A stretch of 63,868 nt of DNA, counting the filler, from Intoshia linei (Eukaryota; Animalia; Orthonectida), in assembly GCA_001642005.1 (NCBI GenBank). It is 9 parts of 9 records of this genome, joined end to end, with 100 filler letters (N's around TTAATTAATTAA, not from the genome) between each part and the next. Parts side by side here need not be neighbours in the genome. Positions count along the whole stretch, not along the records: positions 60,057 to 61,410 come from LWCA01002651.1; 8 more parts are not named here. One strand, written 5' to 3'. How positions within the stretch are numbered: the first letter of the stretch is position 1; every line of letters begins with the position of its first letter. Shown one piece after another: positions 17,101-62,280 of this stretch. The translations under genes and the position numbers were made by a program. Below the pieces are notes generated by a model. That model was not told where the DNA came from. It saw only the letters and a list, made by a program, of their open reading frames with translations, and made no database searches.

Positions 17101-20100
17101 TATTTTATTGTAAAATCCATTTAATGAAAACACAAAATAAAAAATTATTATTTTTTGAAAAACATGACTTTACCAAATCTTATGAGAAAAAATCTTTTAT
17201 TTTTACATAAATCTTATATATATATATCTCATGAAAAAATGAATTTAATTTAACAAAACTGATGTCCATTCAATGTGTGGAACTATCTGTAAAATATAAA
17301 TGTATTTTTTAAATAAAAAACAATTTATAAGCCCATAAAAATAAAAAATTCAATTATGAAAAATATAAATAAAATAATTATTTTATAATTTAATGATTAG
17401 ATTCTAATGGTTAAAATGATAATTATTATTCTACTTATTAAAAAAAGGAAAAAATAATTATATAATATTATAGTGTATAGTGTCGCCATCAGTACCATGC
17501 AGAGGGGTTGGGCCATATGGCCCGATCCTACAATCATAAGGGACTAATATTTTAATTTATTAATATGTAATATTAGAAAATTTCTTAATTATGATGAATC
17601 ATCATTGATGACCAATGCAACTTACAATTGTTATTTTGATTTTTAGGTAATAAAGTTTTGATTAAACAATTTATAGACGTCCCAGTTTTAAAAAAAATTT
17701 ATTTTCCCAAATTTTCCATCTGGCTCAGGCTTACTGCTGGCTCTACGCGGCCCTGGTCGCTCAATACTTTTAAAAGAAAGGATACATTTTAATTTATTAT
17801 TATTATTATTGATTTGAATCGAACATATTCAGATTATATCAAACATAAATTTGCATATAAAATTAAATTAAAATAAAAACCTGTAAAATTTAGAATTATC
17901 TGCTTGAATAATGGTAAAATTTGTAAAAGTTGCACACCCCGATATGACTTGTCTTACATTATGTTGAACATTCATGATAATGTTGTTGTCATCATCAATT
18001 AAAGTCAATTCCACACTCCACAACCCAGTTGATGAATACAAATTTTGAATAGGTTGATTGGTTTCATCATAAATACAAACAATTAAAGGTTTTTCAAAAA
18101 TGGCCCCAGCATGTAAAGGGATAGGATTCTGAAAGATTTTCATTGAAGTAGGAATGACAATAGTTTCTAAAATGATATTATGTCCAACATTTTGATCGGC
18201 GGTAATTATATACTGTTGATAATTTGGATCTTCTGGTGGAGGAACTGGTTTGGTTATAGTCATATTAATAACAATAGCATTCATTATTTTTGAAATGGAA
18301 TCACTCTGTATAGCTTCACCCAAGTTTGATACGATGCTTGTTAATTTTTGGAATGACAGTACTGGTGTTTTTACACCTGGATTGTCACCAAACTCTAATT
18401 GCACGGATAATTTTCCTATAGCACGTTTTTTCTGTAAAGCATTTGACTCTGAAATAATATTCACTATTCTAACTTGACTAGGATCTAATCCTAAAAATAT
18501 TCTCAAATTGTTGATGATATCAACTCCAAAAAAATCGTCAATTGTCATATCCGGTAAATCAAAGCTAAACCGTACCACCGCCACTATAGATATTTTGTAA
18601 TCAATAGATGACTGAACGGTCAAGTACAATGTTTTACTCATTGTGTCGTAAATATTGGCACCCGACGTGCCGTCTGATATATAATAAAAGGGTTTATCGA
18701 CTGTTTTGTATCTGTATTCTCCTGGTGAAACTTCTACTCTGTTACTAGGCGGTACATAAACACCATTAGCCGTAACATCTATTCTTTGAGAAGTTGAATA
18801 ATAAATGGCTACAAAAATAAAAACAGTTGCACCACTTGATGGCAACATTAATCTCAAATTTTGAGGCAAGGTGCTACTCAGGTGGATAGTATAATTACTA
18901 CCTGCCGTAACTATAGGTCTATATAAACTTAATCGCTCTCTACAAGCATAGCCTTCGCATATTCCGTGGTCGGATGGGCCATTCATTACGTCTAAGAATA
19001 AATCTCCAGACAAAATGGCAATTGGGCCAATTCTTCTGGTTAATGTATCGGAATCAAGACTTTCTAAATGAAGATGATAATAATCGTCTTCTTGGCACCG
19101 GTACGCCGTCCATTCTTCATTCCATACACATCTATTATTCTGAATTCCTACTTTTTTGTATAAATGTTTGTATTCTATTCTGTTTCCATTTAAATCAGTC
19201 GACATTGTTTTGGGAATCCTATGATCTCCAAAACCGCGACTCTGGTCTCCATTCCACTGAAATGATGAATCTGGTATAATTGCATATTTTCGATTTTCTT
19301 TGGGGTAAAAATGTTCAAGTAATGAACCATCCAAATCTTTAATCAACAATTTTTTATTCATATCACAGTCCATATCGATACACCCATTAAATGTTTTAAT
19401 ATTAGACAATTTGGGTCTGCCAAACTGTGCAATATTATTTTCAGAAACATTAAAATATTTAAGCTTGTTTGTTTTAATCATGTATGAGTAATCTTTATTT
19501 TCAGGGTTATATACGAATATATAGTTTTTACTGTTTTGACACCCTTTATTGTAATTAACAAATACTGTGTCTTTGACGTTTATATCAAATGACAACAAAT
19601 TTCGAGACATTAATGTATGTAATGCCATTTCTGGAAACATGTTATCATTTTCATTTGTCGTTGGCCATAATATTGCATGATATGATTGTTCGCCACCAAT
19701 TTTTGGAGGTGTCGAAGATGTGGCAATAACATAAAAGCCTTTATTAGATTTTTCTATATTATTATTTTGACAGTCGAATCCCTTGGACATGCCCACATAT
19801 ACGGATCTTTCAATAGTTACATAATGTTTATTTAAAATGTGATTTACAGGCGAACCCCCCAGAACCATTGCAAATGTACCAATCTTGGTATCTATTAAGA
19901 TGTTATCACTCAACAGTATATTACATTCTGATTGAGTGTATATTCCATAAGTCCAGACCTTCCAAATTTTAAATGAACGGATTCTAACGCACTTGTCAGA
20001 AATGGGCAAAGTGGTGGCCTGGCAATTTTCTGGTTCAATTAAAACACCAATTACAGCGGCTCCAATGATATTATTATGCCATTGCACAGCATTACTCGAT

Positions 20101-23100
20101 GTACACAATTCACCGCCAGTATTAAACGCTGCTCTTTCTGACCCAATCACAACATTGTCGATGCATTGTGTATCAACACTATTTACTGTATGAATTGCAC
20201 CATCATAATTCAAATTGAAAGGTTCATATCTTCCATTATATGTCCCTGAAAAAAGGTTATGTAAAACCAAATTTCCACTTATAAGTGTTGTTTTACTATT
20301 GGTTACTATTGCACTAACCACCGTGTGATATATGGTATTAAATTCAATTTTTATATTTGAGGATCCAAAAATACCCACTGCAGTTGAATAACAATTTCTG
20401 AAAGATGAGAATCGAACAAAATTATCACTCATTTCTTCATTACTTATGTCTATGAAAGCTATAGAAAAACGAGGATCAGATGGAGATACAAACCCTTCTT
20501 GTCCAGTCTGCATAAATTCTACTGATTCTATTCTAATTTTACCTGCAAAAATTTAAAAATTTAAAGATTAAAAAATTATGTTTTATATAACCTTGAAAAG
20601 ATTTTATGTCAGGAATACCATCAATTAAATTTACTTCCGTTGTCCGTCCCACAACAACTCTTCCACCGAAAGATTGCTTATGACTAGTTCCATCATCGTA
20701 ACCAAATATTTTTATATTTCGTGTCAATAATCCAACTAAAATCTATTTAGATAATAATATTAATAATAAAATAACCATAAACAGAAATTTCGTAAGATTG
20801 GCTTGAACTATTTTCTACTATTCTATCGTTCACAATAAAATGATTATAGTTTAATGGGGTTTCTAGATTTATTATTCCAAGTTTTAAATCAACAGATTTA
20901 ATTTGAACAATTTCTGTCTCTCCACTGTCAAAACTTGATGAAGATATGACAATTTCATCTTTTGTCTTCCAGGTGATAGCTCCGTTTACAGTAATGCTAT
21001 TGTCCCCTTTTCTAGCTGACATTACCAATTTATATTTATTGAAACTTTTATCTGATCCAAATAGTTGCAGTAAACCAAAAACAGCTAAAATTATAATTTT
21101 TATAAATAACGTCGCATCATTGTCAGAGCCCAATATACCATGTTCGAGGAATATACAAATATTAATTAGGCCTTTAATTTCATATTTTCTAAAAGATGCG
21201 TATTATCATATAACCACTAACTCACGGATCAAGGTTCTCAGCTTGACAGTTATGATACTGACAAATATATAAATCCTTACTTATATAAATGTTCAATTTA
21301 GAAAAATTATAGCAAATTTTGGAAAAAATATACATTGTTCTATCGATTATAGCATATTATATATATAGTTATACGTACTACCTCAATAAGGCACCCAATA
21401 TGATCAATTGTGTATGTAACTCTTTTGTGTGTTATCGTTTAATTAAAAAAGTCAATGGTTTATAAAATAAAAAACTCAATTTGTAATAAAGTTTTCAGAG
21501 ATTGATGTTTTAAAGTAAATTTTATTTACAGAAATTAGATCCTTCTGGGTCAAAAACACAAATTCCCATTTTTTTAAAAACTGAAGAGCCATAGAATTTA
21601 AAAAACATTGACTTTTCTCGGAATATTTATAAAGTATTAACATTGTCGTTAATGTCAACATCAGAACCTTATATTTTTATGTTCCAAGCCCCAGATTACC
21701 CTTTTCTTTCAAATTAAAAGTCCTAGAATTTAATAAAAACATACATTTTGGTAAATCTCAACAAGAGAAGTTTACATCTTTATGGTTTAAACTTTCAACC
21801 CATATTACACGTTTTTTTAAATCTAGTGCTAGAATTTTAAAACAAAATTACAGCTAATGCAGTTATTGCAATTAACATACAGAAAAAATTTTAATCTCAA
21901 ATAGCGACGCTATAACGGTCAAAAAAGCACTTTAGTATTCATTTTTTTATTTGGTATATTATTTACTTTATAAACCAAAAGTATTCAAATGTCAATAACT
22001 CATAATCATATAATTTAAATAAAAGATTATTCATAGACAGATTATTCCACGTGATCTAAAGAAAACATTTGAACCCATAGAAGTCTGCGTATTCCTGGTC
22101 AAAAATTAATTTTAATATATTATCAACCAATATTTTTTAAATTTTAATTTAAAATTGAAAATCTAAATATTCATCTTAAAATTTCAAAAAAAAGTGAGAA
22201 TGAAAGCTATAAGTATTTGAAATACAGAAATCATGGTTTTAGTCTCATAAATGGAACCATTCCGTTTTTTTATCATTGCTACGCAATTATCTATTGGTAT
22301 TTTCAAAAAAATTTAAAGTTTATCAATTAAAGTATAACTTTGTTATTATGCAAAATGTACTTTAAAAAAATAAACTAATTTTTTAATTTTGCTTGTAAAT
22401 TAAAGTGGCCAGAAAAAATACGTACTATTGATTTTGGTTTATTTGGTGTTAAATGTAAAGCCAAAACTAATTATCTATGACGAATAAAAATTTTCGGCTT
22501 AAAATTTATGGCCACTTTAGGTAAATTACCCATTACTAGTGGTAATACAATCAGAAATCTGGTAAAGCACGTGCTGGTAATAAAAATTTTACCAATAATG
22601 CTGGTAACACCTTTGCTTATTGCAGCAAAATATTTGTACTTATCGAAAAAGGATACGGAATATATTTCATCACATTACACAAATTTTTAGAAACTTATAA
22701 TTTACACAAATAAAGAGTATTGAACATTGTTCACAACTTGAAGGATTTGAAAGAATTCTCATTTTAATTAAATATTATTATGTAAACTAACCTATAGATT
22801 TAGATCCAATTTTGGGTCCATATTCAGTAACATATTCCACAGTATCTTGATTTCCATGCAACACAATATCAAAATCTCTAGTAAAAGCTTCTTGAGCAGT
22901 TCCAGCAAACATGTGACCACCTTGAATAATAATATTAAATACGTGTAATTCAATTTTTGGAGATGCTACACCATTTAAATTGTTTTTTACTTGCAATGTT
23001 CCTCTAATGATTATTTCCTGGTAAACAGTTTTTTCGCCGGTATCTAAAATTACCCATAAATTTTTTGGGATAATAATTTTTGCTCCATTTGAAGGTAGAC

Positions 23101-26100
23101 CATTAGTAGTAGAGGAACAGTATATTTTGTCTTCCACTAAAGTTGTCGACCAGGATGATGTCATAGACCATTGAAGTGAATTATTTGGAGTTATAGTAAT
23201 CTCATTAATTTCGTCTCCATCACCGGGTAATTTGCATTGGTAATAAAAGCATTTTTTTGCTTCAAACTTTACATCTAAATCACAGTAATCTTTATCATGA
23301 GGAGAACATACACCTACATATGTCAATTCTTTACCAGCTTTACTATAATGATAATCTCCAAAAATTAAACCGCTGTCCCACGGTGTACCACCGTTGTTTA
23401 ATGGTGACGTGATCGTGTAATTATGATTTTTAACTGTAGGGTCTTTATTTAAAGGTACATTAAGTATATCATAAAAATCTTGTTTTAATATGTGGCTTAT
23501 GAAAATAAATTCATTTTTTTCCAAATTCCATATACGCCCTAAATAGCTAATATTTGATATTTGTAGTCCATTTTCCCAAACTATTGAATATGATTCACCA
23601 ACCACACCCATAAACATCCACCCATCTGAAAAAACATCTCTTTTGATTCTGTATGGTACTAAACTTTCCCCATTTTTATTTTTCACAATAATGTTTTTAT
23701 AAAGCAAACTTTCGGGTAACGCTTCATTGAAACTGAAACGAAACATGCTCACGGTAGGTGAACATAAAAGTGCCTTGAAATTAACACTCCACATTCCAGT
23801 TGTATCAATTTTACACTTTGATAAAGGTACTAAATCTGTTTTTGGTACTACACGATAGCCAGCAACATTTGTATCTGTCAAACTTCCATCCAAATCTACC
23901 AATTCCATCTAGTATATACTTATAAATTATATATTGTATTATACCATATGTTCCCATTTAAAATCACTTCTTTTTGAAGAATTTATATACTTTACATTTT
24001 TAAATTTATAAGTGTATCCACCACAAATATTTGTACATTCGCAAATCACCTTAACCAACCCAAATGTAGAGCATATCTGTCCATTTTTTTCTCCGTCGTA
24101 ATTAATATACGTCACTCCTAATATATAATTATAATTAATTGCATTTATTTTTAATGTTACCATCGTATAGTAATCCATTTCCAAACGGCAATACAGTTCC
24201 ATACTAAATATTTGATAAATATACTTTTTTAGAAACCAGAAAAATAGTACACGGTCGCATAATATCTGCAATTAAAATGACTTAAAAAAATTAAAAAGAC
24301 TATTAAAATAATAAAAAGTTGAACGAAATCAAATTGCTGTAAAATTTTGTTTGATAATTTTATCACACATTTAGGCATAGTATGATTATATACCGTGGTA
24401 CTTTCGAAACGTTTGGTTTTACGGATGCTATGATAAACTAAATGATGCATATGATTATAAATACATTGTGCTAAATCACTAAATCTTATCACTTTTCTAA
24501 TTTTTTTAATATACGAGTGAGTAATTCGGCCAATGAAGAAAGATGGATAATTTAATTTTCAATAGTTGAATCAGCGAATCAGTGATTTTTTTATTTCGAG
24601 ATATAAATAAATTTTAAAAATTATTATTCATTATTAAAATTTTAAGGTTCAGAATTTTGTAATGTTTCCTTTTATTACCGTTATTTATAAAAAATACTAA
24701 AAATTTTCCACTAAAATTTATTTTAATTTTTTGCAGATACAGAATACTATATTATTAAAATATTCATTTAAAGATTAAAGATTGTTATTACAGACAGAAT
24801 ATTAAATTATTTATTATATTTATTGGTATTATTATTATTGGTGAATAGTGTTTGCATCTGAGATGACCCAGTGACTACCCGCTCATTTTTTTAATATATT
24901 GACGACATGAAACTAAATAGATAAAAATTACTTTGCTGCAAGGAGGATGAGCTTGATAATTAAAATGAGATATAATTGTAGCACCAGTAACCATTGCTCC
25001 AGTATATTTGTATTGGGGTGTATTATGCATAATATGAACGTGTTCCAAATTAGCTTCAAAATTATTTCCAACCAAAAAATTTTTATATTGAACTGAACTG
25101 CACCTAACCCATTCCGCTCCACGTAAAGAGTTCCAGACAATCATTTTTTCAAAAATGGCAGGTTTTGTAGCTGCCCCATAATCGCATTTTCCATACGTTT
25201 TAGACGTCTCACGAGGATCATAACGTTCAAAAATCCACAAACCGTACCAACCTACTGAATGAACAGTGTTGTTGAAACATTCCAGTAAAGGAGCGAATCT
25301 AGGACAAATTGACTTGTCAAATGAAGGACCTTCAGGATGTTCCCTCATTCTGTACCAAATTCCAAAATGGGTTCCTCCAGCAATATGATTATGTCTTACA
25401 ATGTTGTAAGGATGAGTGATCCAGAGTCCAGCTGGCGATATGTCGTCATTCAATAAACTAGAACTAGATTTTACATGTACGAGAAGGTTATATTGGATTA
25501 TATTTTCACGTTCTATGCTATCTTCTAAAAAAACGGCTCCACCCATTACATCATATATTACGTTTCTTTCAAGCACTAAAATGTGTATTTATATTGATAT
25601 GAACGATTATGCAAGTTTTACTCGATCCTATACAATGGCCAATATTTTTAAAGTAAATTGTGATTCATTGTCGGAATAAAAATTTTAAATTTTGAAAAAA
25701 TGTATAGGTTCTTGAAAGTCTAGTCCAGTGTTTCCCAAATGGTTTGCCATAAGTAGAATTCAGATGCGTCGCAAAGAAATTTTACTTTATTTTATAAATT
25801 TTTAAAAATTAGTGTCTAAACGTTTACATTGACGAATATTGTAGGATTTAGTATTTAATATAATATGCGATTTTTGTTTGTGTGTGTGTTCCACTTTATT
25901 TAATATTGAATTTTATAAAGTCCACATTTCAATTACAGTTTTTTTTCTGGGTGTGTTCGCAAAATTTATTTCAACCTCCCAAACTCATATCTTACGGGTC
26001 AAAAACCCCAATTGTCCTTTTTTTTAAAAATCAAACAAGTTGGAGAATTTAAAATAATATATACGCTGATACGGATTTTAAAATCATAAACATTATTATA

Positions 26101-29100
26101 AATTTAAATTTAAAAAAATTATATCTTCAAGGCCAAAACCCCAAATTACCCTTTTTTTAAATGAAAACAGCCCTAGAATTTAAAAAAATTTACAGGTGGT
26201 AGAGTTGTATTATGTTAACACACATAAAAAATTTCAATCTGAGTAAGTGACGACTTCACGGTTAAAAAATCATTTTAGTATTCATATATTTTTTTTCCGA
26301 AATATTTTATTAAAACCAAAAATGTGAAATAATTAACCGTTCAAAAATTAAAAAAAAAAAAATTATTCTGATAGTGCCTATTCCAGTTGATATAAATACA
26401 AAATTTCAACCCCAGATATCTACGCATTCCCGGTGAAAAATAATTTTTAATATATTATCAACCAATATTTTTCAAATAGTTCGATTAAAATCAAAAATTG
26501 AAAAAGGTAAATATTGAAAATGTAAATATTGATCCAACCATTTCAAAAAAAATGTGCAGTGAACGTCTACACATTTCCCATAAAGAAATATGGGTGAAAA
26601 TCTATATAATTCATTCCTTCGGAATTTTTTAAATTTTAAATTCTCATTTTCAAAACATTTTGAATAAAATTTAAATAGAAACTAAACACGAAACATGATT
26701 TATTGAAACCTGTTATAACCATTCAATTTAATCAGTTATGGCAAATTGATGTTTTAGGTCCGTTTATAGAAAATTCAAAATTAAATAAAGCATTTTTGTA
26801 TTATTATATTATATTTTTATCGTTTTTAATCTTTGCAAATTTTCGAATATCGATGTGTTATTTTCTTATCAAAATTTTTATTTATTTCACATGTGCTCCA
26901 AGAAATAAAAAAGGTTAACAATAACTGCTCCAGTGATTCGCAATACAAAATTAAGTACGCCTCAAGAATTTTAAATAATTTCAAAAATTGAATAAAACTT
27001 ACAATTGTTAATAAATTAATAAAAAATACAAGGCAATTAATTTAATTAATTTACACATAAAAAAAATCACATCGTTTATCAAAACGTTTTTTAGAGTCAT
27101 TTCAATAATGTTTAAACTTTTGGGTTCACATTTATTAGGGGGATAATATTTTAGCAAAACAGTCAAATATTCGAGCAAATCGATTTGAAGTGTTAAGAAA
27201 TTTTTTTACATATTTGGTGCACCGCCAATTTTCATTACCTTTAAGTACGCGTAATAGCAAAAAGTTTGGGGACCACTCGTCTAGTCACTAGAGCAGTGCT
27301 TTCTAATCTGTGTGTTGCCAAACTTTTAAAATTTATAATCTAAAGTGAACAGAAAAAATACCTACTAACAATTTTAATTTATTAGTTTGTTAGTGTAAAA
27401 TTTAAGTTTTAAGTTTTTCACTTTTTTTGGTGACGAGAACAATTCTCGTCCACTTATTTTTTTAATTTTTGTGTCGCAAAATTTTTCGAAATTGAAATGT
27501 GTCGCCAACCAAAAATTTTTGAAAGCACTACACTAGAGTCTAGTTAATAGAGTTTAATAAGTACAGTAATGTAGCAGTAACATTTTTTTAGCCATGTATA
27601 GCAAAAAATAATAATACAGTCTAATTTCTCGTTATATGAATATTTTAAAGACTAATTTTGTAATTAAAAATATACAAATTGGATGATTTATGTTAATAAA
27701 ATATTATTATGCATTGGCTCTTCTATTTCAAAAAATTCTGATTAACATTTTTATTGAAGTAAAAAAATTTTAAAAGTATCTTCTTTTTTAATTAGTAATA
27801 GCAAAATATTCAAAAACAGTCATTATTTTTATATAAAATTTTTTTGTCAAAATTTCACTTATTTTCTGCATACAACTAATTTTATATAGATAAATAGTGT
27901 AAATAGTGAAAACTTTTAAATTTTGAAAAAAGTGCTCCACTTTTCACAACTTGTCTATAGTCCGCTTAAATTAAGCCTTAATCCGTATCTACTGTAGTAC
28001 TCATTGATACTACATCTGTATCGAAAATTAATTATATTTAATTTTATTCTGTTTTTTTGATTTTTTCTGTTATTTATTACCTACTAAAAGCCCCTTTAAA
28101 TTAACATGATTATTGTACTTGATAAAAATAAATAATCCGTTAATCTGCGTTTTTCGAAAACTAGTAATTCAGTTAATCAGTAATTAGACTGTACAATAAT
28201 TACATATATTGTGACTGTTGTGAATGTTTATTGCCCGATTATAAGTTTTGTGTATGGAACATCCTTTTACATATGATCCAGTCATATTTCCATTAATATG
28301 AAAATGAATAGGATAACGTCCTATTCTAAAAGCTTGACCAACATTGAATAATTCAACATATTCTATATGTATTTTTGCAGAGTTGGAATCAAATACATGG
28401 CTATGTGCCATTATTTGACCTCCATATTCATCAGAACCAACTTCATTCCCAAATCGTCCCTAGTGTAAAATTAAATGAGTAATATTTATTAATATGTGAT
28501 GTAATTAATTTTGGGTACTATGAAAATAGAGCAATTTTTAAATACAAAATATTGGATTATTAACTGGGACCATTCCAGTGTAAATAAGCTAAATTAAAAC
28601 CGTGTCACCTGTTAAAATGGATTAGATTTTAAATAATGATTGCTTGACCCATCAAATTTTTTAAGGATTTGGTGCATTCAAAAAAATAAAATATTTTTCT
28701 CCAAAATTATTTTAATTATATTAAAAAGTTGCCAAACCCGATTTTAAAATTTTGACTCACTTTTCAAATTACTAAGTAGTACTACATTTGTATCTGTACT
28801 ACAAATTCTGTAGTATCTTGTATTGAAGATATGAAAATGAATTTGATGTATCAAAATGAACAAAAACTAAAAATTTTAAGAAAATAGAAAATAACCTGAA
28901 AACACGTTTGTACAGCAAATTGACCTATCAAAAAATAAAATACAAAATTTTTAGTAATTCACCTGTATCAAAAGTTTCTGGGCAAGCTTTAATATTATCA
29001 GCCCATTGTTCATTAGAACTTCCTCTAAATAAAATATTGTGAGACAAAAGTCCCACTTCCGCTCTCAGTTCAATCGAAGCTCCATTAGAGTAAGTTTCTG

Positions 29101-29334
29101 TAATACCCAAATGTTTAAATTTAGCATTTGTATCTAGAGTAATTGTTTTTTCATCCAATTCAATCTTTATTATTAAAAATGTTTCATTTTCATTTTGACT
29201 ATTATGACCACCAGTCGTAGGAATAACAATTTTATCGCCAATTTTCCAATTCACTTTTGTTTTAAGTACAATTACATTTCCACCAATTTCCAAAGTATTT
29301 GCTAGTAGAGACCACGTTTCAGGAGTCTTTCGAC
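14102..29334 (-). CDS. PKHD1L1: Fibrocystin-L (PKHD1-like 1), 3' part of a large multi-exon gene; 5' part not identified (probably beyond the gap at 30366)
   Basis: Approximate exons 28963-29334, 28206-28460, 24931-25576, 24160-24202, 23943-24118, 22791-23909, 20776-21080, 20591-20735, 17881-20541, 15708-15892, 15190-15350, 14636-15078, 14410-14582, 14257-14369 plus short terminal exons. Motifs include LRAEVGLLSHNI, GQAFRIGRYPIHFH, PbH1 beta-helix repeats, a G8 domain (IIIRGTL...IIIQGGHMFAG...IVLHGNQ), CIDMDCD, ESLDSDTLTRR and GPSDHGICEGYACRERLS. C-terminal TM helix TVLLSVLIPCLLIILIIIFILLAYF with a short tail; stop at 14102-14104. Confidence 0.9.
16100..16915. repeat. Foldback-like element with inverted arrays of CGTCTAATTT / AATTAGACG subrepeats
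   Basis: CGTCTAATTTAAT-like units at ~16115-16230 mirrored by TTAGACGCTG units at ~16845-16895. Confidence 0.45.
16616..16826. mobile_element. Candidate solo LTR
   Basis: GC-richer 211-bp block TGTAAAC...GAATAAAATA with internal AATAAA, flanked by 4-bp repeats AATG (16612-16615, 16827-16830). Its right end resembles that of 11039-11277 but ends in TA rather than CA. Confidence 0.4.
17490..17755. mobile_element. hAT-like MITE
   Basis: Imperfect TIRs CAGTACCATGCAGAG / CTCTACGCGGCCCTG; flanks GTCGCCAT / GTCGCTCA match partly. Confidence 0.45.
25726..27278. mobile_element. Non-autonomous hAT element (1.55 kb) with perfect 8-bp TSD, containing a Helitron-like copy and an integrase fragment
   Basis: TIRs CAGTGTTTCCCAAA / TTTGGGGACCACTC; TSD GTCTAGTC at 25718-25725 and 27279-27286. 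Confidence 0.85.
25855..26665 (+). mobile_element. Copy of non-autonomous Helitron-like repeat family, nested in the hAT element
   Basis: Near-identical to 29361-30175 over ~750 bp, including the TG/GT microsatellite near the 5' end. Confidence 0.85.
27294..27530. mobile_element. hAT-type MITE with perfect 8-bp TSD
   Basis: TIRs CAGTGCTTTCTAA / TTGAAAGCACTA; TSD CACTAGAG at 27286-27293 and 27531-27538. Confidence 0.9.
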
Positions 29335-29360
29335 CTATAATTATAATACGCATTTAAAAA

Positions 29361-30175
29361 ATTCTAACTTATATAAAATGCGACACGATTTTTGTTTGTC
29401 TGTCTGTGTGTCCTACTTTATTGAAATAACTAGCACTCTTAGAATTTTTGAAAGACCACATTTCAATTACAGTTTTTTCCGAGACGTATAATAAGATAAA
29501 TTTCAACCTCCCAATTTCACATCTTAAGGGTCAAAAACCCTGTTGTCCCTCTTTATGAAAATTAAACGAGTTAAAGAATTTAAAAAAAATATATACGCTG
29601 ATGCGGATTTTAAAATCATAAACATTATCATAAATTTGAATTTCAAAAAATTATACCTTCATGGCCAAAACCACAAATTCCCTTCCTTTTTTTTTGAAAA
29701 CAGCCCTAAAATTTCAAAAAATTTACAGGTGGTAGAGTTGTATTATGTTAACACACATAAAAAATTTCAATCTGAGTAAGTGACGACTTCACAGTCAAAA
29801 AATCATTTTAGTATTCATATATTTTTTTTCCAAAATATTTTATTAAAACCAAAAATGTGAAATAATTAACGGTTCAAAAATTAAAAAAAAAATTATTCTG
29901 ATAGTGCTTATTCCAATTGATATAAATACAAAATTTCAACCCCAGATATCTACGCATTCCCGGTGAAAAATAATTTTTAATATATTATCAACCAATATTT
30001 TTCAAATAGTTCGATTAAAATCAAAAATTGAATAAGGTAAATATTGATCCTACAATTTCAAAAAAAATGTGGATTGTACGTCTACACATTTCCAATTATA
30101 ATAAAAATCTATATAATTCATTCCTTCGCAATTTTTAAATTTCAAATTTTCATTTTCCAAACATTTTGAACATCT
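29361..30175 (+). mobile_element. Copy of non-autonomous Helitron-like repeat family
   Basis: Begins A|TTCTAACTTATATAAAATGCGACACGATTTTTGTTTGTCTGTCTGTGTGT; homologous to the other copies. Confidence 0.85.
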
Positions 30176-33194: not shown

Positions 33195-34368
33195 ATGAGT
33201 CTAATGATGAAAGTATTACTTTGTATTTTTGTGATATTAATGGTTTTTTTTTGCATGTCTGCATATTTCATTAGTACATAAATCTTTGAAAAGTATATAC
33301 AATTCACATGGGGTAAAATTTCTACCATTTAAACAAAACTACAAACAGGGATTTGAGCATTTTGATTGACATTGGAGCTAAAAGTCTGGGTAAATTAAAT
33401 GCATTCCAGACGCAATTATAGCAGGTTTTGCCAAATGTGGCACGGGTACTTCGCATTATTTTCTTCAACAACACCCAGAAATATCGATTGCAGAAGAAGT
33501 ACACTATTACAATTTCAACATTTTATATAAAAATCTTGATTGGTACAAGTAATAATGAACAATTTACATAACAAATATAACAATTAAGAAATCGAATGAA
33601 TCTGGCATATAATTGTTAATTGAGTCTAGAAACTACTGCAGCTTACACAATAAAAAATAATACACCCGAGAGAATTTTTAATGTTAACCCAAAAACAAAA
33701 TTTATCATTCTAATGCGCAATCCTGTTAATCGGGCCATATCTCACTATAAAATGATGAATTTTATGGGATTGTATGAGAGAAAAGATAAAAAAATTAATA
33801 ATGTAGATAAATTTTTTGATTTAAATGGCAGACACAAATACATCAATTCAAACCAAAACGCATCACACCCTAAATACAATGAACGTTTTTATACGGACGC
33901 TTTGTATGTAATTCACTTGAAAAGGATTTTGAAATTTTTTAATCGTTCTCAAGTATTATTATTAAATAGCGAACATTTCGTCAAATATCCTTGGCTGACT
34001 CTCAAAAATGTTAAAACGTTTTTACACATTAAACCATATTTAGACAAGAAGAAATTTGTTTTCAATATTCGTAAGGGATTTTATTGTATTTTTAAAAATG
34101 TTTATACATATTTTCAAAATGATTTGAATGGAATGGATAATGTTAATCCATTGTTCAGCAAGAGATTGCATGTATGGATTCACCAAAGGGATACGCTAAA
34201 ATTGCAGTTAATTCTACTACTATTCAAAATTTGTACAAGTATTATGAAAAAACTAATCAAGAATTAAAAAAAAAGTTTCAGTTTTCGTTTGACTGGACCA
34301 AAGTCGCTGGAAAAAAAAAATTTATTAAACTTTTGAATTTGAACTTAAATTCTAATTTGTGTAAATAA
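33195..34368 (+). pseudogene. Heparan sulfate glucosamine 3-O-sulfotransferase-like, apparently disrupted
   Basis: 5'-PSB-like CIPDAIIAGFAKCGTG...HPEI...EVHYY...LDWY, 3'-PB LMRNPVNRAISHY, KGFYC|...CMDSPKG and FDW; introns 33549-33588 and 34100-34158. There is an in-frame TAA in NC*LSLETTAAY and further stops/frameshift between the N-terminal TM segment and the catalytic domain. Confidence 0.75.
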
Positions 34369-36998
34369 GAGTATAAATAAAGTCAGATATGTACATAAAA
34401 GATATAGCAACGCTACACCTTCCCTCCAGGATAAGTGGTGAGAAAAAAAAATTTTTTAGTGAAATATATATAGATACGTTTGAGAAATAAAAAAAATATA
34501 TTTCTTAATTATCAGAATCATATTTATCATATATATAGTCTTTTTTAAGATATGAGGGTCTTTTAATTTGACGCGATGGTCTTGAATTTGGATTGGTAGG
34601 AGTTTGATTAATCTCATCAAAATTAGACTGGTCATTTTTATAATAACGTCCATTATTCATGTACCAGTGTAATGGTTGACCCCTTTGCTTAGCTCTACGT
34701 CGTTCACATTCTTCACGTTTGGTCTCTAAATAATTCATCCATTCTTTACTAGAAGCTGCGGATGGATCAACGACTTCCAATTCATCACATAATCCGTCAT
34801 AACTGGGTATATTACTTTGTGCATTATGTGCAGTATTCTGTAGTGAATCTTAAGATTTTACTAAATCCGATGTTACTGGAGAATTTTCTACATGGTGTGA
34901 ATTTGATTTGGAACACCATACCGTGCGACAATATTATTTAGTATGTTATACGCCACACAATTAGGGGTCATATCTTCAATAGGAAAGATTTCAGGCTAAC
35001 CTGTAAAATGATCTACCATGACCAATAAATAACGATTACCATTTTTTGTAACAGGCAATGGACCAGCAAAATCAACTTGCCACAATTCGTTAAATTTAGA
35101 TGAAATAACTTGCTTTAATGGATGATTATAACGTTGACTACCAGTTTTAAATAAATTACATTTAAAACATTTCCTAATAAAATCGGTAACGGCCTTTTTC
35201 AATCCCGTACAATAAAAATCCTGTTTAATTTTCATCACTATTTGAATAATGCCTGAATGGGAGTTGCAATGTAATTTGTCTATCAATTTATCTCGTAATA
35301 AATTAGGCGTAACAATAAGCATATTTCCATTATTCTGACTAAAATAAAGCAGATTATTTTTAATGGTGAATTTACGTAAGTTTTTATAGTACTTGTTTGA
35401 TGAGTCAACGGTTTTATTGTTGCGTAAGAATTTAATAACTTCTCTACAATGAGAATCATTTGATTGAAATTTTTGAATATTTAACTCATCATTAGCATGT
35501 ATAATAGCATTACACCTGGAAAGTTGATCAGCCATTTTATTCATTGGCCCGGGTCTATATTTTATTACATAATCATAACTTTGTAAATCTTGAAACCATC
35601 TGAGTTTCATACCCCGCAATTTGGCTGAATTAGCTATTGTAGTTAAAGGATTGTGATCAGTTAATATAGTAAATTGTTTTCCAATTAAATAATGTTTAAA
35701 TTTGTTTACAGAATAACCTATGGCTAAAGCTTTCTTGTCAACAGTACTATAATTTCTTTCAGCTGACGATAATCGCCTACTAGCATATTCAATAGGATGA
35801 TTATTTTGCATAAGTACCGAACCGATACCGAAATCAGATACATCAGTTTCTAGTGTAAATGGCAATTCTGTGTCAGGTAATTTCATGACAGGTGCAGATG
35901 ATAATTTTTGTTTAAGTGTGTTGAAAGCATGTATACATTTTTTATCCCAAACAAAGGGAATATTTTTTCTAAGTAACCGATTTAATGGTTCTGCAATGTC
36001 TGCAAAATTTCGAATGAAACGCNGATAATTTTTGTTTAAGTGTGTTGAAAGCATGTATACATTTTTTATCCCAAACACAGGGAATATTTTTCCTAAGTAA
36101 CCGATTTAATGGTTCTGCAATGTCTGCAAAATTTCGAATCAAACGCCGATGATAATTAGCAGCACCCAAAAACATTTGTACTTTCTGTTTATCCGTGGGA
36201 TATTTAATGGCTTTAATAATATCAATGTCGTAAATATAATTTTTACAACGACCCGGTTTATTTGAGAAAACGTATTTAAATTTTTTTATTGTTTTTTCAA
36301 AAGATTTACTCAAATATGCCATGTTTAGATCAATTTAACTGTTCAATTGTGGATCACAAGGATCAAAACTAATCGTTAATGTGTCCTTAATAAAATTAAT
36401 AGACTGGCTCGATAAGCTATTACGTAATCTTGTAGAATTATTCAATATATCAATGTTATGATTGACAAAGAAATCTAAGCCTAAGATTGGTTTTGAAACA
36501 TTCGAGACAACAAAAGTATGGATAAAAGAGTTATTTAAAGATTTTGGTTTTTATTATTCCCTTATTTATTATTGGATTACCATTAACGTCTGTAAATTTC
36601 TTATAGGATGGTTTATTCGCTTTAAACACACTAGGTAAAAAGGAGGAAACAGCTCCTGTATCAATAAGACATTTAAAATTCCGTTTATCAATAGTACAGT
36701 CTATATAAAATAATGAAGTCCCATAATTAAAACTATTTTTTACTTCATAACAATATTCAAATATGTGTCCTTTTTTACCACATTTAGAACATGAGGGAAT
36801 CAAGTGCTTCAAGTTACAATTAGCGCCATTGCATTTTCTTTGTAAATAATTATCACAAATTGTATTTGACTGAGAGTCAACAATATTTAGATTAGAAAAT
36901 TTTTTTACATTTCTCTTATTTAGATTATTTTTATTGGAATAACACCATTTATTATCTGCCAATTTGTTTGTTGGTTTTTGATATGACCTTTGAGGATT
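34302..36998 (-). mobile_element. Ty3/gypsy LTR retrotransposon, internally deleted; 5' end lost in gap
   Basis: Gag CSKCGKKGHIFEYC knuckle, protease LIDTGA, RT thumb FLGAANYHRR, RNase H (ETDVSDFGIGSVL, TDHNPL), integrase HHCC and WQVDFAGPL...VDHFT*, C-terminal RPSRQIKRPSYLKKDY. PPT GGAGGGAAGG (34418-34427) is followed immediately by TGTAGCG (3' LTR start at 34417). The distal LTR end is inferred. Confidence 0.9.
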
Positions 36999-37099
36999 NN
37001 NNNNNNNNNNNNNNNNNNNNNNNNNNNNNNNNNNNNNNNNNNTTAATTAATTAANNNNNNNNNNNNNNNNNNNNNNNNNNNNNNNNNNNNNNNNNNNNG

Positions 37100-43736: not shown

Positions 43737-45107
43737 TATTGTATATAGCGAGCAAAATGATTTTTAAAAATATGCAATCTAAGCAATAATTTTAGAGCCT
43801 TATTATATTTTAATTTAATTAAATACTCATATAAATGGATTTATATTTAGATTTTCGTATTTAAATTTAAATTATCGTCAAAATTATGTTAAGGTTACTC
43901 AGAATTAATTAATATTCAGATGATGTATAATATTGCGCATATATATTTTATACCATGGAGTATAAATTTTATCTTGGATATTTTACTTTGCACGTTTTAG
44001 GAAATTTTAATTGCATACATACATTTATAAAAACTTATAAATATCGTCAAATCTGTTCTTAAAAATGGTTTCAGGTTATTGAGATGCGAATTAATTATTT
44101 ACAAATTTTAAAAATATACAATTTTTTAATTCAATAAGGGTAAAGATGGGAACATTTTATCTAATGCGCAAAAACTGAAATATCTCTTCATAAAATAATA
44201 TTTTATTGTTGACACTATGTAAACATTGGTAATAAAATTAATTTTGTACTCATATTTCATGAGTAATAAATTGTTCACAATTGACATACGTACCGCCTTA
44301 TTTTTGCATGCCGGTAAACAATAGTAAATTTATGATTGTACTTTTTTGCATGTATACGTGTTATTGTCTCGTAATGATTAATGTTAAAAATTGCATCTCT
44401 CATGTGAAACCATAGTGAATACATTAATTTTATTATATTTGAATCAATTTTTATAAAAATGTATTCAACTAAAAAACAAATAATGTTAACAATATTATAA
44501 ATACTAGGGTGAACATTGTTAAACCTACATTCATTTTTTTATATTGTGTTGCTTTTTGATATATTTTGCGTTCCAAGTGTGCGATAATATCTACCGTACT
44601 TGCCATTCCACCTGGACCTGTGAATAATCATATAAAAAATTGAAAAATGATGAATACCTGACTCTCCGCACATTAATTTTTTATAAACTACAGGAACATA
44701 TGTCGCACCCCAGTTTTCTACAATATCCATTTGCAATGAAGTGATAGGATGTTGGTACATTTGGGTATTGGCAGCTAAACAACAAATCATTGGTTTTTTG
44801 TAATCCCAAGCTCTGGTAACATTGGTCTAATTTAGATATTAAGAATAATAAATTATGAACAGTTTTGACGCTGTCCCTTTTCAAGAGAAAGTATTTAAAA
44901 TATGAAAGAGATTGCAAAGAATACCACAACAAATGGTATATTCTATAGTCTTAGCAAGATTTACTGGAAATATGTACAATAATAAAATCATGGAAAGGGG
45001 CCAGTGAAGGGTAATGATATGTAATCCCGGATTCTATCCGATTTCTATACAAATGTACGATTACAATACGATTTCGAAATAAAAAATTTAGTGTAGTTAT
45101 TTAATTA

Positions 45108-53085: not shown

Positions 53086-53390
53086 AGAAAACACACGGCA
53101 GTGCATAAGTAATACTTTTAGCCATACTAGTTTGGTTTTNNNNNNNNNNNNNNNNNNNNNNNNNNNNNNNNNNNNNNNNNNNNTTAATTAATTAANNNNN
53201 NNNNNNNNNNNNNNNNNNNNNNNNNNNNNNNNNNNNNNNCTGCGACAGTACGTTCCAATGGTTGAAGTTTTTATACACAATTTGATGACAAGTAAAATCA
53301 GATGTATAAAAAGAAAAAAATTTGACGAGGCCAAATTTATTGTCGTTACAGCTTACAATAATCCAAAATNNNNNNNNNNNNNNNNNNNNN

Positions 53391-54124
53391 AATACATCAA
53401 ACTGCCAATTTTGCAGTTATTAGATCTCGATATTTGGTCGGCATTTAATAAAGCAACCAATGAAATGATTGTCACGAGGGAAGGACGAAATATCTTTCCA
53501 AGATTTTCACTTTGCGCTACAAATTTAAATCCGGACGTTTATTATACATTTGCATTGTGTTTTGTGAGGTATTAAAATAATTATAATTATACTTCAATAT
53601 AATGTATTTCAATATATTTTTAGAACAAAAGAGTCAAAATTCAAATTCGATAGAAAAAAATGGTGTGAAATATTAGAATCTTCTGAATCGATAGAACGTA
53701 ATATATAAAATTTAAATTAAATTTTTATAATAACTGATTAATTTAGAAAGTCTTTCGTACAAACATCCAGATTCTCCACAATTAGGAAAGCGATGGAGTA
53801 AAATTATTAGATTTAATCGATTAAAAGTGTCAAATGCAAGAAACGACAGTTATAAAGAACTGGTTTGATATATTTTCATTATTATTTATTTTTTTTAAAC
53901 CATTTTAATTTATTGACAAGGTCAAACTAACGAGTCTGCGACAGTACGTTCCAATGGTTGAAGTTTTTATACACAATTTGATGACAAGTAAAATCAGATG
54001 TATAAAAAGAAAAAAATTTGACGAGGCCAAATTTATTGTCGTTACAGCTTACAATAATCCAAAATTAGTCGAACTCAAATCTCAATTAAATCCTTATGCG
54101 AAGAAAATTACATATAAATGTTAA
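53391..54124 (+). CDS. Divergent T-box transcription factor (5' end in gap), 4 visible exons
   Basis: LLDLDIWSAFNKATNEMIVTREGRNIFP...LNPDVYY|..KFKFDRKKW|..YKHPDSPQLGKRW...FNRLKVSN|VKLTSLRQYVP...FDEAKFIVVTAYNNPKLVELKSQLNPYAKKITYKC*. Confidence 0.9.
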
Positions 54125-59246: not shown

Positions 59247-59761
59247 ATGAATCAAAATAAACGGTACAGTATTTATGATTCGCAAGATACTAGTGTTGAA
59301 ACTGACGAGGAAACATATGAATCACAGAATTATGCACATTTTGGTATTTTTTTCGATTCTCGGATAACTTAGATATATTCTTAAATAAAATAAACCCTAT
59401 ACCCAGACAAGGAGATTCAACAGTGTCAGAGGAGATAATATTGTAAGTTCCCGACTTAGACATTAATAAAAATTTGTTTGGTTTTTCTATCCATTGTTAA
59501 TTAATTAATTCAGTGGTTGCTAAATTTTTTTCAGCCTTACTTTAAAAAACTACTTTAACATTTGAGAAGTGAGTAATATTTGTAAATGTAATAATCTGTA
59601 TATTAACAGTTCATTTTTTAAGATATTAGCTAATTATCTTAATCTCAATGTTAATGTAATCTTAATTTAACTGGGTTTCAATATTTAATTAATTTTTATA
59701 GATAATGTTAAATTCATCAATGGTATTCACAAAAAAAGATCAGATATTGTTTCAAGTTTAA
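59247..59761 (+). CDS. 5' exons of an unidentified gene
   Basis: MNQNKRYSIYDSQDTSVETDEETYESQNYAHF | DIFLNKINPIPRQGDSTVSEEII, with short GT-AG introns. Confidence 0.4.
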
Positions 59762-60056: not shown

Positions 60057-60677
60057 GCATTGTGAATTTGACTAAAAAGATTAAAGATTTGGAAAAAAAC
60101 GACCCTTATAGAATTACTCTACTCGAAAATTATTGATCAAATTGTAAAAATTATTTAAACTAAACAATAATTTTAGATACGATTTAGGACTAATTAAGAA
60201 TAAATCATCATTAAAACTGTGTAAATCAGTTAACACTGAATCATTTTGTAGGTAATTTGATGTAAACCTTGAACATGATGTAATTGATAAATGAATTTTT
60301 AGAAGACGTTTACCAGTTGTACTAAAAAAGCAAAAATATGCTGAAACTATGAAAGCGTGTGTTAATTTTGTGGAACAAGGACGTACTTTTTATTGTTATT
60401 TTGAATTAATTATATTTTAGACATTAGGGTAGGCTGCGACGTTATTTTAGATCCGGCTTATTTGGTAACCAGGTTTGAATTTAATTTTTATTATTTTGAT
60501 ATAATATTGAAAAATTGATAAAAATGTATTTTTTAATTTAGAAGCAATAATGACTACATAAATTGGACTGATCAATCTGCAATTAAACAAAAAGTTTCAA
60601 AATATAACCAAAACGTATTTTTTTATAAAACATAATTTAATATTTTTTAGATGGATGATTTTGATTTCTACTGTTGA
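60057..60677 (+). CDS. IMP3: U3 snoRNP protein IMP3 (5' end in gap), 6 visible exons
   Basis: KKIKDLEKNDPYRITLTRKLLIKL|YDLGLI...VNTESFCR|RRLPVVL...FVEQGH|IRVGCDVILDPAYLVTR|SNNDYINWTDQSAIKQKVSKYNQN|MDDFDFYC* (S4-like domain). Confidence 0.93.
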
Positions 60678-60824
60678 CTGAAATTTCCAATTTTGTAATA
60701 TAATAAAAATTAATAGGTGAATGCTTTCATTAATATCAAATTTCTTGTAGGGTTTCATTACATTTGATAGTTTATCGACCCTGCTTCAATTGTGACTTTC
60801 GTTTTCTTTCATTTTATATTTTTA

Positions 60825-60994
60825 ATGTTTAAAATTTTTCAATATTGTTTGTTATGTACGGTTATCATTTTGACATTAGCTGTACCATCAGAATATGGTA
60901 CCAAGCGTGTGACAAAATTCTATATGCCAGCATTTGGGTAATATTTATTTTTAAATATTTATTTATATTTAGGAGGTTTAGCGGATGGGGATAA
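60825..60994 (+). CDS. Putative small secreted neuropeptide precursor (44 aa, 2 coding exons)
   Basis: Exons 60825-60937 and 60973-60994 (35-nt GT-AG intron): MFKIFQYCLLCTVIILTLA-VPSEYGT-KR-VTKFYMPAF-GR-FSGW-G*. Signal-peptide-like N-terminus, dibasic site and C-terminal Gly. Confidence 0.6.
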
Positions 60995-62280
60995 TTACAA
61001 CCGTTTGGATTTTAACATTAAAACTTATTAACTTGCATTTTGTTTAAAATTTTAAGTTTGTCGCGTTCTTATTATTTATTGTTTTTCAGCTTTATTTTAT
61101 AAAAAAACATCTGCTTTCGTTTTTATTCTAATGTGCCAAATTAAACAATTATATCGTCTTATCAAATTTTATATCGAATGTAATTTCTAATTAATCAATT
61201 TTTCGTTGATCCTCAACCTTGATGACAACATATTTAAATTTGTTAAGTTTGAGTAGATAAACAAGGAACGATCTTAATTAAAGGATGAAGGTTGAGGGCA
61301 TTTTTAAATTATATTTTTTTGTAAAATATATTATGAATAGTATTTGGTAAACGAAAAATGAAACGAATTTCAAATCATCGCTTGAATAAACTACTTTCAG
61401 GTACTTTTTTNNNNNNNNNNNNNNNNNNNNNNNNNNNNNNNNNNNNNNNNNNNNTTAATTAATTAANNNNNNNNNNNNNNNNNNNNNNNNNNNNNNNNNN
61501 NNNNNNNNNNAGTATATAGAACAGCGTTTCTTAAAATTTTTTAAATTTACCAACCCTAGCCAGATCAATTACTTCCAGCACCCGTGTATCACAAATTAGT
61601 CACTGACGTAACTTATGTCTGCTCCATTTTATTTAAGAAAATAAGAGGATTGTAGTTTTAAAAATTCTATATTTCTATTACAATTTTTCGAGAGTGTTTT
61701 GTTTTATTGCAAATTTCATCTTCAGAAATTCATTCCTTTAAGGTGAAAAACCCAATTGTCCTAGATTTCATACAACATAAATTCTGGGATCGTTATAAAT
61801 TCATAACCATTATCATATATGGTAACCTCAAAAAAGGTAATTTTCACGGTCAAAAATCAGATTGTTATTTTTTTTTAAAATGAAAACTGCTATAGAATTT
61901 AAAAAAAAATTACAGATGATACTGCGATAAAATTTATCATATTCTCGCGCTTTCAATTTAATTAATGATCTAGTAAAGAAACTTGTTTATTCTTTCATCT
62001 TTTTGATGATTGAATTTTGAATTTATACAAATAAAGAATCTTTGCATTTTATTTAATTATTTAATTGTTAAAATTTTTAACACATGTTCTTAAAAAAGTT
62101 GCTTCCATTCCTAATTCAAACATTTGAATTTATCGATAAATTATCGATAACAATATTTCGATCTATTTCCAACATCATTTTAGCGTATTAGTATGCTATT
62201 TTCATCAGTTAGAATGGAAAAATAAAATAATATTTATTAAAATAATTAAAATACTTATAAAACGTTTACATTAAAATCAC

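What the first reader, a model, noticed from the sequence alone, without database searches (positions are those of the whole stretch)
60825..60994. Hidden 44-aa amidated neuropeptide-like precursor whose splice choices could switch the mature peptide
Seen: a 2-exon ORF below the ORF-track cutoff encodes a hydrophobic leader (~19 aa), spacer VPSEYGT, KR, then VTKFYMPAF-GR-FSGW-G-stop. All three possible splice outcomes end in Gly-stop: (i) normal splicing gives ...PAFGRFSGWG*; (ii) the acceptor is a NAGNAG (TAG GAG, 60970-60975), and using the second AG deletes only the Arg, giving ...PAFGFSGWG*; (iii) intron retention reads TTT GGG TAA, giving ...PAFG*. Established: KR/R cleavage by prohormone convertases plus C-terminal Gly amidation by PAM is the neuropeptide hallmark, and GWamide ends occur in the APGWamide/RGWamide/AKH-related peptides. 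Inference: a peptide I cannot assign to a known family, potentially yielding PAFamide, FSGWamide or a longer GWamide depending on splicing.
Basis: partly seen in the sequence, partly recalled or inferred. Interest (0 to 1): 0.78.

Follow-up and report, generated by a model that had tools for sequence, protein, structure and literature searches.

The report
Stripped-down allatotropin-like neuropeptide gene
A tiny parasitic worm with about ten nerve cells has a small unannotated gene that is spliced and polyadenylated and is predicted to make one secreted, chemically capped signalling peptide, likely a pared-down form of the muscle-stimulating hormone allatotropin, with no sign of the proposed splice switch.

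Summary
The gene is real; the splice switch is unsupported. One 187-nt cDNA-like contig covers 60841-61037, skips exactly the 35-nt intron (first AG) and ends in poly(A). The window is from the orthonectid Intoshia linei, and no annotated protein matches the ORF (14, 45). The three Gly-stop endings are not independent: GAG is the weakest acceptor, and 2 of 5 neighbouring IMP3 introns also have NAGNAG acceptors (proximal used) and 2 of 5 also stop at once if retained (69). The predicted product is one 15-residue Trp-amide. Its best match is annelid allatotropin: same layout, KR at residues 27-28 as in Platynereis, 8 of 15 identities to Capitella with one gap; only the observed isoform keeps the match (83). 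Against: the conserved His and the ~54-residue tail are missing, an RGWamide motif scores equally (p about 5e-4 each, uncorrected), and no homologue was found. Neuropeptide precursor about 0.8; allatotropin descent about 0.5; regulated switch about 0.05. Interest 0.42.

The parts
60825..60881 (+). Predicted signal peptide, residues 1-19 (Lys3, hydrophobic core, Thr-x-Ala cleavage site)
   Evidence: Hydropathy and (-3,-1) rule in own script; SignalP not available. 60825-60840 is not covered by the contig.
60882..60902 (+). 7-residue spacer (propeptide)
   Evidence: Sequence; transcribed
60903..60908 (+). Lys-Arg convertase site, residues 27-28
   Evidence: same position as in the Platynereis allatotropin precursor (counted by eye)
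60909..60937 (+). Exon-1 part of the predicted mature peptide (Val29 to the first two bases of Gly38)
60938..60972 (+). 35-nt phase-2 intron, GTAATA donor, TAG acceptor
   Evidence: Contig skips exactly 35 nt: 60936 joined to 60972, equal to GT..AG cut one base further right
60973..60994 (+). Exon-2 coding part: Arg39-Trp43, amide-donor Gly44, TAA; holds the unused AGs at 60975 and 60981
60995..61037 (+). 3' UTR with ATTAAA at 61017-61022; poly(A) added after 61037
   Evidence: 25 loose A's behind 61037; genomic sequence there is T-rich, 6 A in 20 nt; signal position
60809..60814 (+). Initiator-like TCATTT, possible transcription start 14 nt before the ATG (weak)
   Evidence: Pattern match only; common by chance in AT-rich DNA; consensus recalled
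60057..60707 (+). Upstream neighbour: 3' six exons of an IMP3-like gene (stop 60675-60677, AATAAA 60702-60707); used as splice control

Best explanation
This is a spliced, polyadenylated two-exon gene of the orthonectid worm Intoshia linei, predicted to encode a 44-residue secreted precursor that would release one 15-residue peptide ending in Trp-amide, likely a stripped-down allatotropin (orexin-type) neuropeptide. Shown: transcript, intron, first-AG splicing, poly(A) site, species. Inferred from established neuropeptide processing: signal removal after Ala19, cleavage at Lys27-Arg28, amidation using Gly44 with no carboxypeptidase step because the stop follows directly. Inferred from sequence likeness: descent from allatotropin with loss of the His and of the whole C-terminal domain and Phe/Tyr-to-Trp change. 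Untested: release from some of the roughly ten neurons onto an allatotropin-type GPCR to drive body-wall muscle or ciliary activity. The alternative splice forms are by-products, not a switch. Odds by step: neuropeptide precursor about 0.8; allatotropin descent about 0.5.
For: Transcript: one 187-nt contig, 0 mismatches, skips 35 nt, 25 A's. Coding-like: GC 0.36 against 0.06 intron and 0.21-0.26 flanks; best codon score of five frames tried. Leader passes a hydropathy and (-3,-1) test. Layout signal, short spacer, KR, one 11-14-residue peptide, Gly is that of spiralian allatotropin precursors. KR at 27-28 as in Platynereis and Lineus. By eye, residues 31-44 match Capitella allatotropin at 8 of 15 columns (F32, M34, A36, R39, F40, S41, G42, G44; one gap) and Platynereis at 7 of 15 plus two aromatic swaps. 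All 13 occurrences of RFSHG in the Thiel 2021 supplement are in allatotropins. Anchored BLOSUM score to a three-annelid motif: reached by 239 of 500000 random and 2189 of 500000 self-shuffled peptides; the other isoforms drop from 23 to 1, 2 and 8. Oyster allatotropin with an internal Arg was found intact by mass spectrometry (PMC4200219 passage).
Against: Strict spiralian motif with His not met; no His-less form found in the supplement (RFSGF 0, RFSGW 0, RFSGY once in a receptor). All complete allatotropin precursors seen continue after GKR with a long tail (54 aa in Platynereis); this one stops. N-terminal Gly-Phe-Arg start and the R-x-K-R site are absent. An RGWamide motif scores as well in the same test (234 and 2512 of 500000); corrected for about 70 families either p is only about 0.03-0.3. 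No homologue in any search. Codon score is only at the 90th percentile of stop-free non-coding stretches. The contig starts 16 nt after the ATG. One run, one study, contigs only.
Confidence: 0.5

Rival explanations
1. A real amidated neuropeptide, but of the GWamide/Wamide group or orphan: a reduced single-copy RGWamide/APGWamide relative or a lineage-specific peptide whose likeness to allatotropin is chance.
For: Ends in GW-G; the RGWamide motif scores as well as allatotropin; brachiopod RGWamide precursors contain an SGW-GKR copy; no homologue found.
Against: RGW/APGWamide precursors are multi-copy with two C-terminal Cys and a phase-0 intron (PMC8557429 passage); this gene is single-copy, has no such Cys and a phase-2 intron. 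A tetrapeptide would need cleavage at single Arg39, which is unfavourable (recalled rule). The match covers 3 residues only and does not explain the upstream F, M, A, R, F identities.
Confidence: 0.25
2. A secreted non-neural peptide (antimicrobial or host-directed) of the parasitic stage, using the same signal-spacer-KR-peptide-Gly layout.
For: This layout is shared by many defence and venom peptides (recalled); mature part is cationic (+2) and aromatic-rich; the animal is an endoparasite; no homologue.
Against: No family match; single copy in the window; sequence likeness to allatotropin.
Confidence: 0.1
3. One reading: regulated choice among first AG, second AG and intron retention yields different amidated peptides.
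For: All outcomes are in frame and end in Gly-stop; contigs can hide minor isoforms; a few GAG-containing NAGNAGs are alternatively used in other species.
Against: Only the first-AG form is seen. The acceptor variants share the same C-terminus by construction. The retention stop follows from a phase-2 GTAA donor, as in 2 of 5 IMP3 introns; 2 of 5 IMP3 introns have TAG-AAG acceptors spliced proximally. [quoted passage not shown] The variants destroy the allatotropin-like motif.
Confidence: 0.05
4. A kinin-like or GnRH/AKH-like peptide.
For: Tail fits F-x-x-W-G (chance 7e-4) and F-S-(x)-G-W (1.3e-4) in relaxed patterns.
Against: Kinins need an amidated residue after Trp, i.e. a further Gly donor (PMC7913504 passage): not met. 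GnRH/AKH peptides start with Gln directly after the signal peptide: not met; anchored score not significant.
Confidence: 0.05
5. Not translated as proposed: a spliced extension of the IMP3 3' UTR, a non-coding RNA, or an mRNA starting after 60825 that uses ATG 60854 (30-aa product without features).
For: The contig does not reach the ATG; the alternative frame has a similar codon score, 0.064 against 0.105; an intron-like stretch lies at 60717-60750 between the genes; precursor-like ORFs arise in 7% of shuffled windows.
Against: IMP3 has its own AATAAA at 60702; the peptide RNA is a separate record with its own poly(A) site; the one precursor-like ORF in 64 kb coincides with a 0.2-kb spliced transcript; an intron far behind a stop would invite nonsense-mediated decay (established knowledge).
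Confidence: 0.05

Closest known systems
Annelid allatotropin precursors (Platynereis dumerilii, PMC3890597 supplement file 9; Capitella teleta CapteP226681, PMC8557429 supplement)
   Same: Signal peptide, short spacer, KR (residues 27-28 in Platynereis), a single 14-15-residue peptide with F, A, RFS, G, aromatic residue and amide-donor Gly in register; 7-8 identities of 15.
   Different: No His between Ser and Gly; Trp instead of Phe before the amide; no GFR start; no KR after the Gly and no 54-residue C-terminal domain (44 aa against 99).
RGWamide / APGWamide precursors of annelids, molluscs, nemerteans, brachiopods
   Same: Predicted GW-amide end.
   Different: Those are multi-copy tri- or tetrapeptides with two C-terminal Cys and a phase-0 intron; none of this is present.
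Leucokinins (kinins)
   Same: F-x-x-W-G at the end of the chain.
   Different: Here the Gly is the last residue and would be consumed as amide donor; annelid kinin precursors are multi-copy with F-x-P-W-[SA]-GKR.
GnRH / AKH / corazonin superfamily
   Same: FS and GW close together.
   Different: No Gln directly after the signal peptide, one residue fewer between FS and GW, no tail.
I. linei excitatory peptide/CCHamide precursor OAF70707.1 (PMC6617912 supplement)
   Same: Only other Intoshia neuropeptide precursor met in my searches; shows that this species keeps divergent members of conserved families.
   Different: Unrelated Cys-containing peptide with GKR and a tail.

Membership tests
Amidated neuropeptide precursor (general) | Transcribed, spliced mRNA | tested here: met
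   one run, contigs only; ATG itself not covered
Amidated neuropeptide precursor (general) | Signal peptide | tested here: met
   Own hydropathy and (-3,-1) rule, cleavage after residue 19; SignalP not available
Amidated neuropeptide precursor (general) | Dibasic site and Gly amide donor | tested here: met
   KR 27-28, Gly44-stop
Amidated neuropeptide precursor (general) | Neuronal expression and detected mature peptide | not testable with these tools
   Needs in situ hybridisation and peptidomics
Allatotropin (spiralian) | Signal, short spacer, basic site, one 11-14-residue peptide | tested here: met
   19 + 7 + KR + 15; compare
Allatotropin (spiralian) | C-terminal [FY][SG]HG[FY]-amide | tested here: not met
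   Strict motif fails; passes only with His deleted and Trp allowed
Allatotropin (spiralian) | Overall likeness of the mature peptide to annelid members | tested here: inconclusive
   239 of 500000 random, 2189 of 500000 self-shuffles reach the score; RGWamide ties
Allatotropin (spiralian) | N-terminal Gly-Phe-[RK] | tested here: not met
   Phe in register (F32) but preceded by Val-Thr-Lys; several brachiopod, phoronid and nemertean members also lack GF[RK]
Allatotropin (spiralian) | GKR followed by conserved C-terminal domain | tested here: not met
   Stop after Gly44 and poly(A) 43 nt later
Allatotropin (spiralian) | Conserved intron position | not testable with these tools
   No text giving allatotropin intron phases in the passages read; one paper sought is not held
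Allatotropin (spiralian) | Activates an allatotropin/orexin receptor; receptor present in the genome | not testable with these tools
   No genome held; receptor signature E/DRWYAI given in PMC6629687
RGWamide/APGWamide | GW-amide end | tested here: met
RGWamide/APGWamide | Multiple copies, two C-terminal Cys, phase-0 intron between them | tested here: not met
   Single copy, no Cys after residue 11, phase-2 intron
Leucokinin | F-x-x-W-[GSA]-amide (needs a further Gly) | tested here: not met
GnRH/AKH/corazonin | [quoted passage not shown] | tested here: not met

The most novel reading that the evidence does not exclude
Orthonectids, with about ten neurons and no gut, have kept allatotropin/orexin-type signalling but cut the precursor to 44 residues, discarding the C-terminal domain that all other complete spiralian precursors seen retain and converting the HG[FY]-amide to a GW-amide, so that ligand and receptor must have co-drifted or the peptide has moved to a Wamide receptor.
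Probability: 0.45. Interest if true: 0.58.

Novelty: new variant of a known kind. Interest (0 to 1): 0.42.

Why it matters
I. linei has one of the smallest nervous systems of any bilaterian (10 cells; bioRxiv 10.1101/235549, search listing) and fewer than 10,000 genes (PMC11521371 passage). Which peptide signals survive such reduction is a direct way to ask what a minimal nervous system needs. This gene was missed by annotation, which suggests that the orthonectid peptide set is undercounted. If it is allatotropin, a myotropic, feeding-linked family has persisted in a gutless adult and its conserved C-terminal domain is dispensable; a synthetic 15-mer and known annelid receptors make this cheap to test. 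The splice-switch idea, which carried most of the first score, should be dropped.

Tried and rejected
No RNA holder is listed on record; the single run X1 is of unknown kind but its contigs skip introns. No cover at 60735-60824 and 60700-60840: not used as evidence for separate transcripts. Contig depths (588 against 302 for IMP3) not used to rank expression. Homologue searches, all with exon 1 only (38-40 aa, lacking the RFSGWG tail, so weak): word search 22-70 aa no candidate; 71-2000 aa 1 candidate, none at E up to 10; phmmer over 1.84 billion representatives 1 hit, P0002, a tandem-repeat artefact matching the leader; ESM Atlas no usable hit; PDB 0; Pfam 0; exact look-up absent; no paralogue in the window. 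No scan of metagenome contigs was obtained (query below the tool's minimum length). No whole genome held, so no receptor or paralogue search. Earlier scan notes: nothing by sequence or place; 8 unrelated notes by words. EP/CCHamide rejected (no Cys pair; the Intoshia member is another gene). NPY/NPF rejected (intron lies in the Arg codon of an amidated RF end in that family; here it is in Gly38 and RF is not amidated). Sulfakinin, MIP and RFamide motifs not met. The relaxed allatotropin pattern (1.2e-5) was fitted after the fact and is superseded. Exact reconstruction of CK2-beta introns as extra controls failed, so the splice control is 5 introns only. Paper searches: Intoshia + neuropeptide, 9 papers, none describing this gene in the passages read; allatotropin + Intoshia, 0 papers; the two orthonectid genome papers in Current Biology were not seen, nor their supplements.

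Full report
OBSERVATION. An ATG at 60825 opens a frame through a GG|GTAATA donor at 60937 and a 35-nt intron (60938-60972) into a short second exon ending in TAA at 60992-60994, 44 residues in all. The acceptor is TAG|GAG; the second AG removes Arg39, and retention gives Gly38-stop. A crude precursor filter, written after seeing the candidate, finds only this locus in the window but at least one locus in 21 of 300 shuffled windows. The pattern alone is therefore modest evidence.

THE GENE IS TRANSCRIBED AND SPLICED. One public run holds the stretch (kind not on record, contigs only). Its contigs skip five GT..AG introns of the upstream IMP3-like gene, so they derive from spliced RNA. A separate 187-nt record matches 60841-60936 and 60972-61037 with no mismatch, contiguous in record coordinates, followed by 25 A's. 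The skip is 35 nt, which is the first AG; the second and third would be 38 and 44. The tool dropped this joint from its joint table as lying beside a repeat, so I read it from the table of pieces. The genome is T-rich behind 61037 and ATTAAA lies at 61017, so the tail is a true poly(A) site. At 80% likeness no second record lies on 60700-61140. Limits: one run, minor isoforms may be lost in contigs, and the record begins 16 nt after the ATG. The coding part has GC 0.36 against 0.06 for the intron and 0.21-0.26 for the flanks; its codon score is the best of five frames tried but only at the 90th percentile of 735 overlapping stop-free non-coding stretches, and the frame from ATG 60854 is close behind.

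ORGANISM. A casein kinase II beta gene at 42020-43018 matches I. linei protein OAF65080.1 exactly within exons, and that record's contig length (8552) equals the window segment 37099-45650. The window is thus a string of I. linei contigs joined by N-linkers; the peptide gene sits on a 1354-nt contig (60057-61410), whose species is inferred from the shared window. Searches that found the annotated kinase subunit did not find this ORF at 22-70 or 71-2000 residues, so it appears unannotated. Orthonectids are degenerate annelids with about 10 neurons (search listing; PMC11521371 passage).

THE SWITCH. The three Gly-stop ends are not three coincidences. The acceptor variants are in-frame deletions upstream of the same C-terminus. 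The retention stop follows from any phase-2 intron with a GTAA donor: 2 of the 5 IMP3 introns do the same, and 2 of 5 have TAG-AAG acceptors that are spliced at the first AG. Only the Gly before the donor is left as chance. Acceptor preference is CAG > TAG > AAG > GAG (PMC2699507 passages); in moss 149 of 3225 GAG-containing NAGNAGs were alternative, and 12 of 12 tested were not (PMC3095350 passages). Cleavage at single Arg39 lacks a basic residue at P4, P6 or P8 and has Phe at P1' (rule recalled). I therefore expect one product, residues 29-43 as a Trp-amide.

WHICH FAMILY. No homologue was found, but all searches used exon 1 alone. Comparison with published precursor lists (supplements of PMC3890597 and PMC8557429, passages) points to allatotropin. 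Spiralian allatotropin precursors have a signal peptide, a short spacer, KR, one peptide of 11-14 residues ending typically in RFSHG[FY], then GKR and a tail. In Platynereis and Lineus the KR is at residues 27-28, as here. Counted by eye, residues 31-44 match Capitella at 8 of 15 columns and Platynereis at 7 of 15 with two aromatic swaps, each with one gap at the His. All 13 occurrences of RFSHG in the larger supplement are in allatotropins. In a C-terminally anchored score with mismatches penalised, the three-annelid motif is matched as well by 239 of 500000 random and 2189 of 500000 self-shuffled peptides, and the unobserved isoforms lose the match (23 against 1, 2, 8).

AGAINST THAT READING. 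In the same test a bare RGWamide motif is equally significant (234 and 2512 of 500000), and with about 70 families to choose from (72 groups in PMC8557429) neither survives correction firmly. The His is present in nearly all spiralian entries shown (not in Phoronis australis or Scutopus), and no His-less RFSG[FWY] peptide occurs in that supplement. Every complete precursor seen has a tail; this one has none. I could not test intron position or the presence of a receptor. It is therefore described as working like, and likely descended from, allatotropin, and is not filed as a member. RGW/APGWamide, kinin and GnRH/AKH each fail their defining features.

MECHANISM. Shown: transcription, splicing, polyadenylation. 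Inferred: entry to the secretory path, cleavage after Ala19 and Arg28, amidation of Trp43 from Gly44. Proposed: release from a few neurons onto an allatotropin/orexin-type GPCR; allatotropin receptors raise calcium and cAMP and a myotropic role is suggested as ancestral (PMC4357254 abstract and passages), so control of body-wall muscle or swimming in the short-lived adult is the most likely role. Untested.

NOVELTY. Searches for Intoshia with neuropeptide (9 papers) and with allatotropin (0 papers) showed no description of this gene; the only Intoshia precursor met was an excitatory peptide. The two genome papers in Current Biology and their supplements were not seen and may list it. Papers seen as passages only: PMC6617912, PMC6543705, PMC7854359, PMC7913504, PMC2699507, PMC3095350, PMC8557429, PMC3890597, PMC12249979, PMC6585902, PMC4200219, PMC6629687, PMC4357254, PMC11521371; supplements of PMC8557429, PMC3890597 (7 files not searched) and PMC6617912 in part.

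VERDICT. A real, unannotated neuropeptide-like gene in a minimal nervous system (about 0.8), likely a truncated allatotropin (about 0.5), without a splice switch (about 0.05). New variant of a known kind; interest 0.42.

Noticed in passing
window 60176-60386: A second contig of run X1 (614 nt) matches this part of the IMP3-like gene unspliced with 21 differences in 211 nt and runs on into unrelated sequence at both ends: a diverged, intron-containing partial copy elsewhere, transcribed or genomic.
   Followed up: no
window 60717-60750: Intron-like 34-nt stretch (AG|GTGAAT ... TTGTAG) between the IMP3 poly(A) signal and the peptide ATG; could belong to a longer UTR of either gene or be chance.
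   Followed up: no
window 61150-61400: Another contig of X1 (441 nt) starts 113 nt behind the peptide gene's poly(A) site and runs past the contig end; no clear ORF identified.
   Followed up: no
window 60118: The IMP3-like contig has one extra G after 60118 relative to the window, and G>T at 60219: assembly error, allele or a frameshift in the assembled gene.
   Followed up: no
whole window: Nine 100-base linkers (44 N, a 12-base stop linker, 44 N) join separate contigs; neighbours across a linker are not real neighbours.
   Followed up: yes
window 14600-29400 (minus strand): Large multi-exon gene with an 894-aa open exon and a weak CEMIP beta-helix hit, resembling fibrocystin-L (recalled).
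   Followed up: no
window 33620-34267, 34996-37046, 44539-44826, 53241-53575: Sulfotransferase exon (Pfam); broken LTR-retrotransposon pol/gag pieces; flavoprotein (PPC decarboxylase-like) exon with weak hit; T-box-like exon (recognised by eye).
   Followed up: no
window 59247-59760: Short-intron gene start on the neighbouring contig, unrelated to IMP3 by eye; not identified.
   Followed up: no
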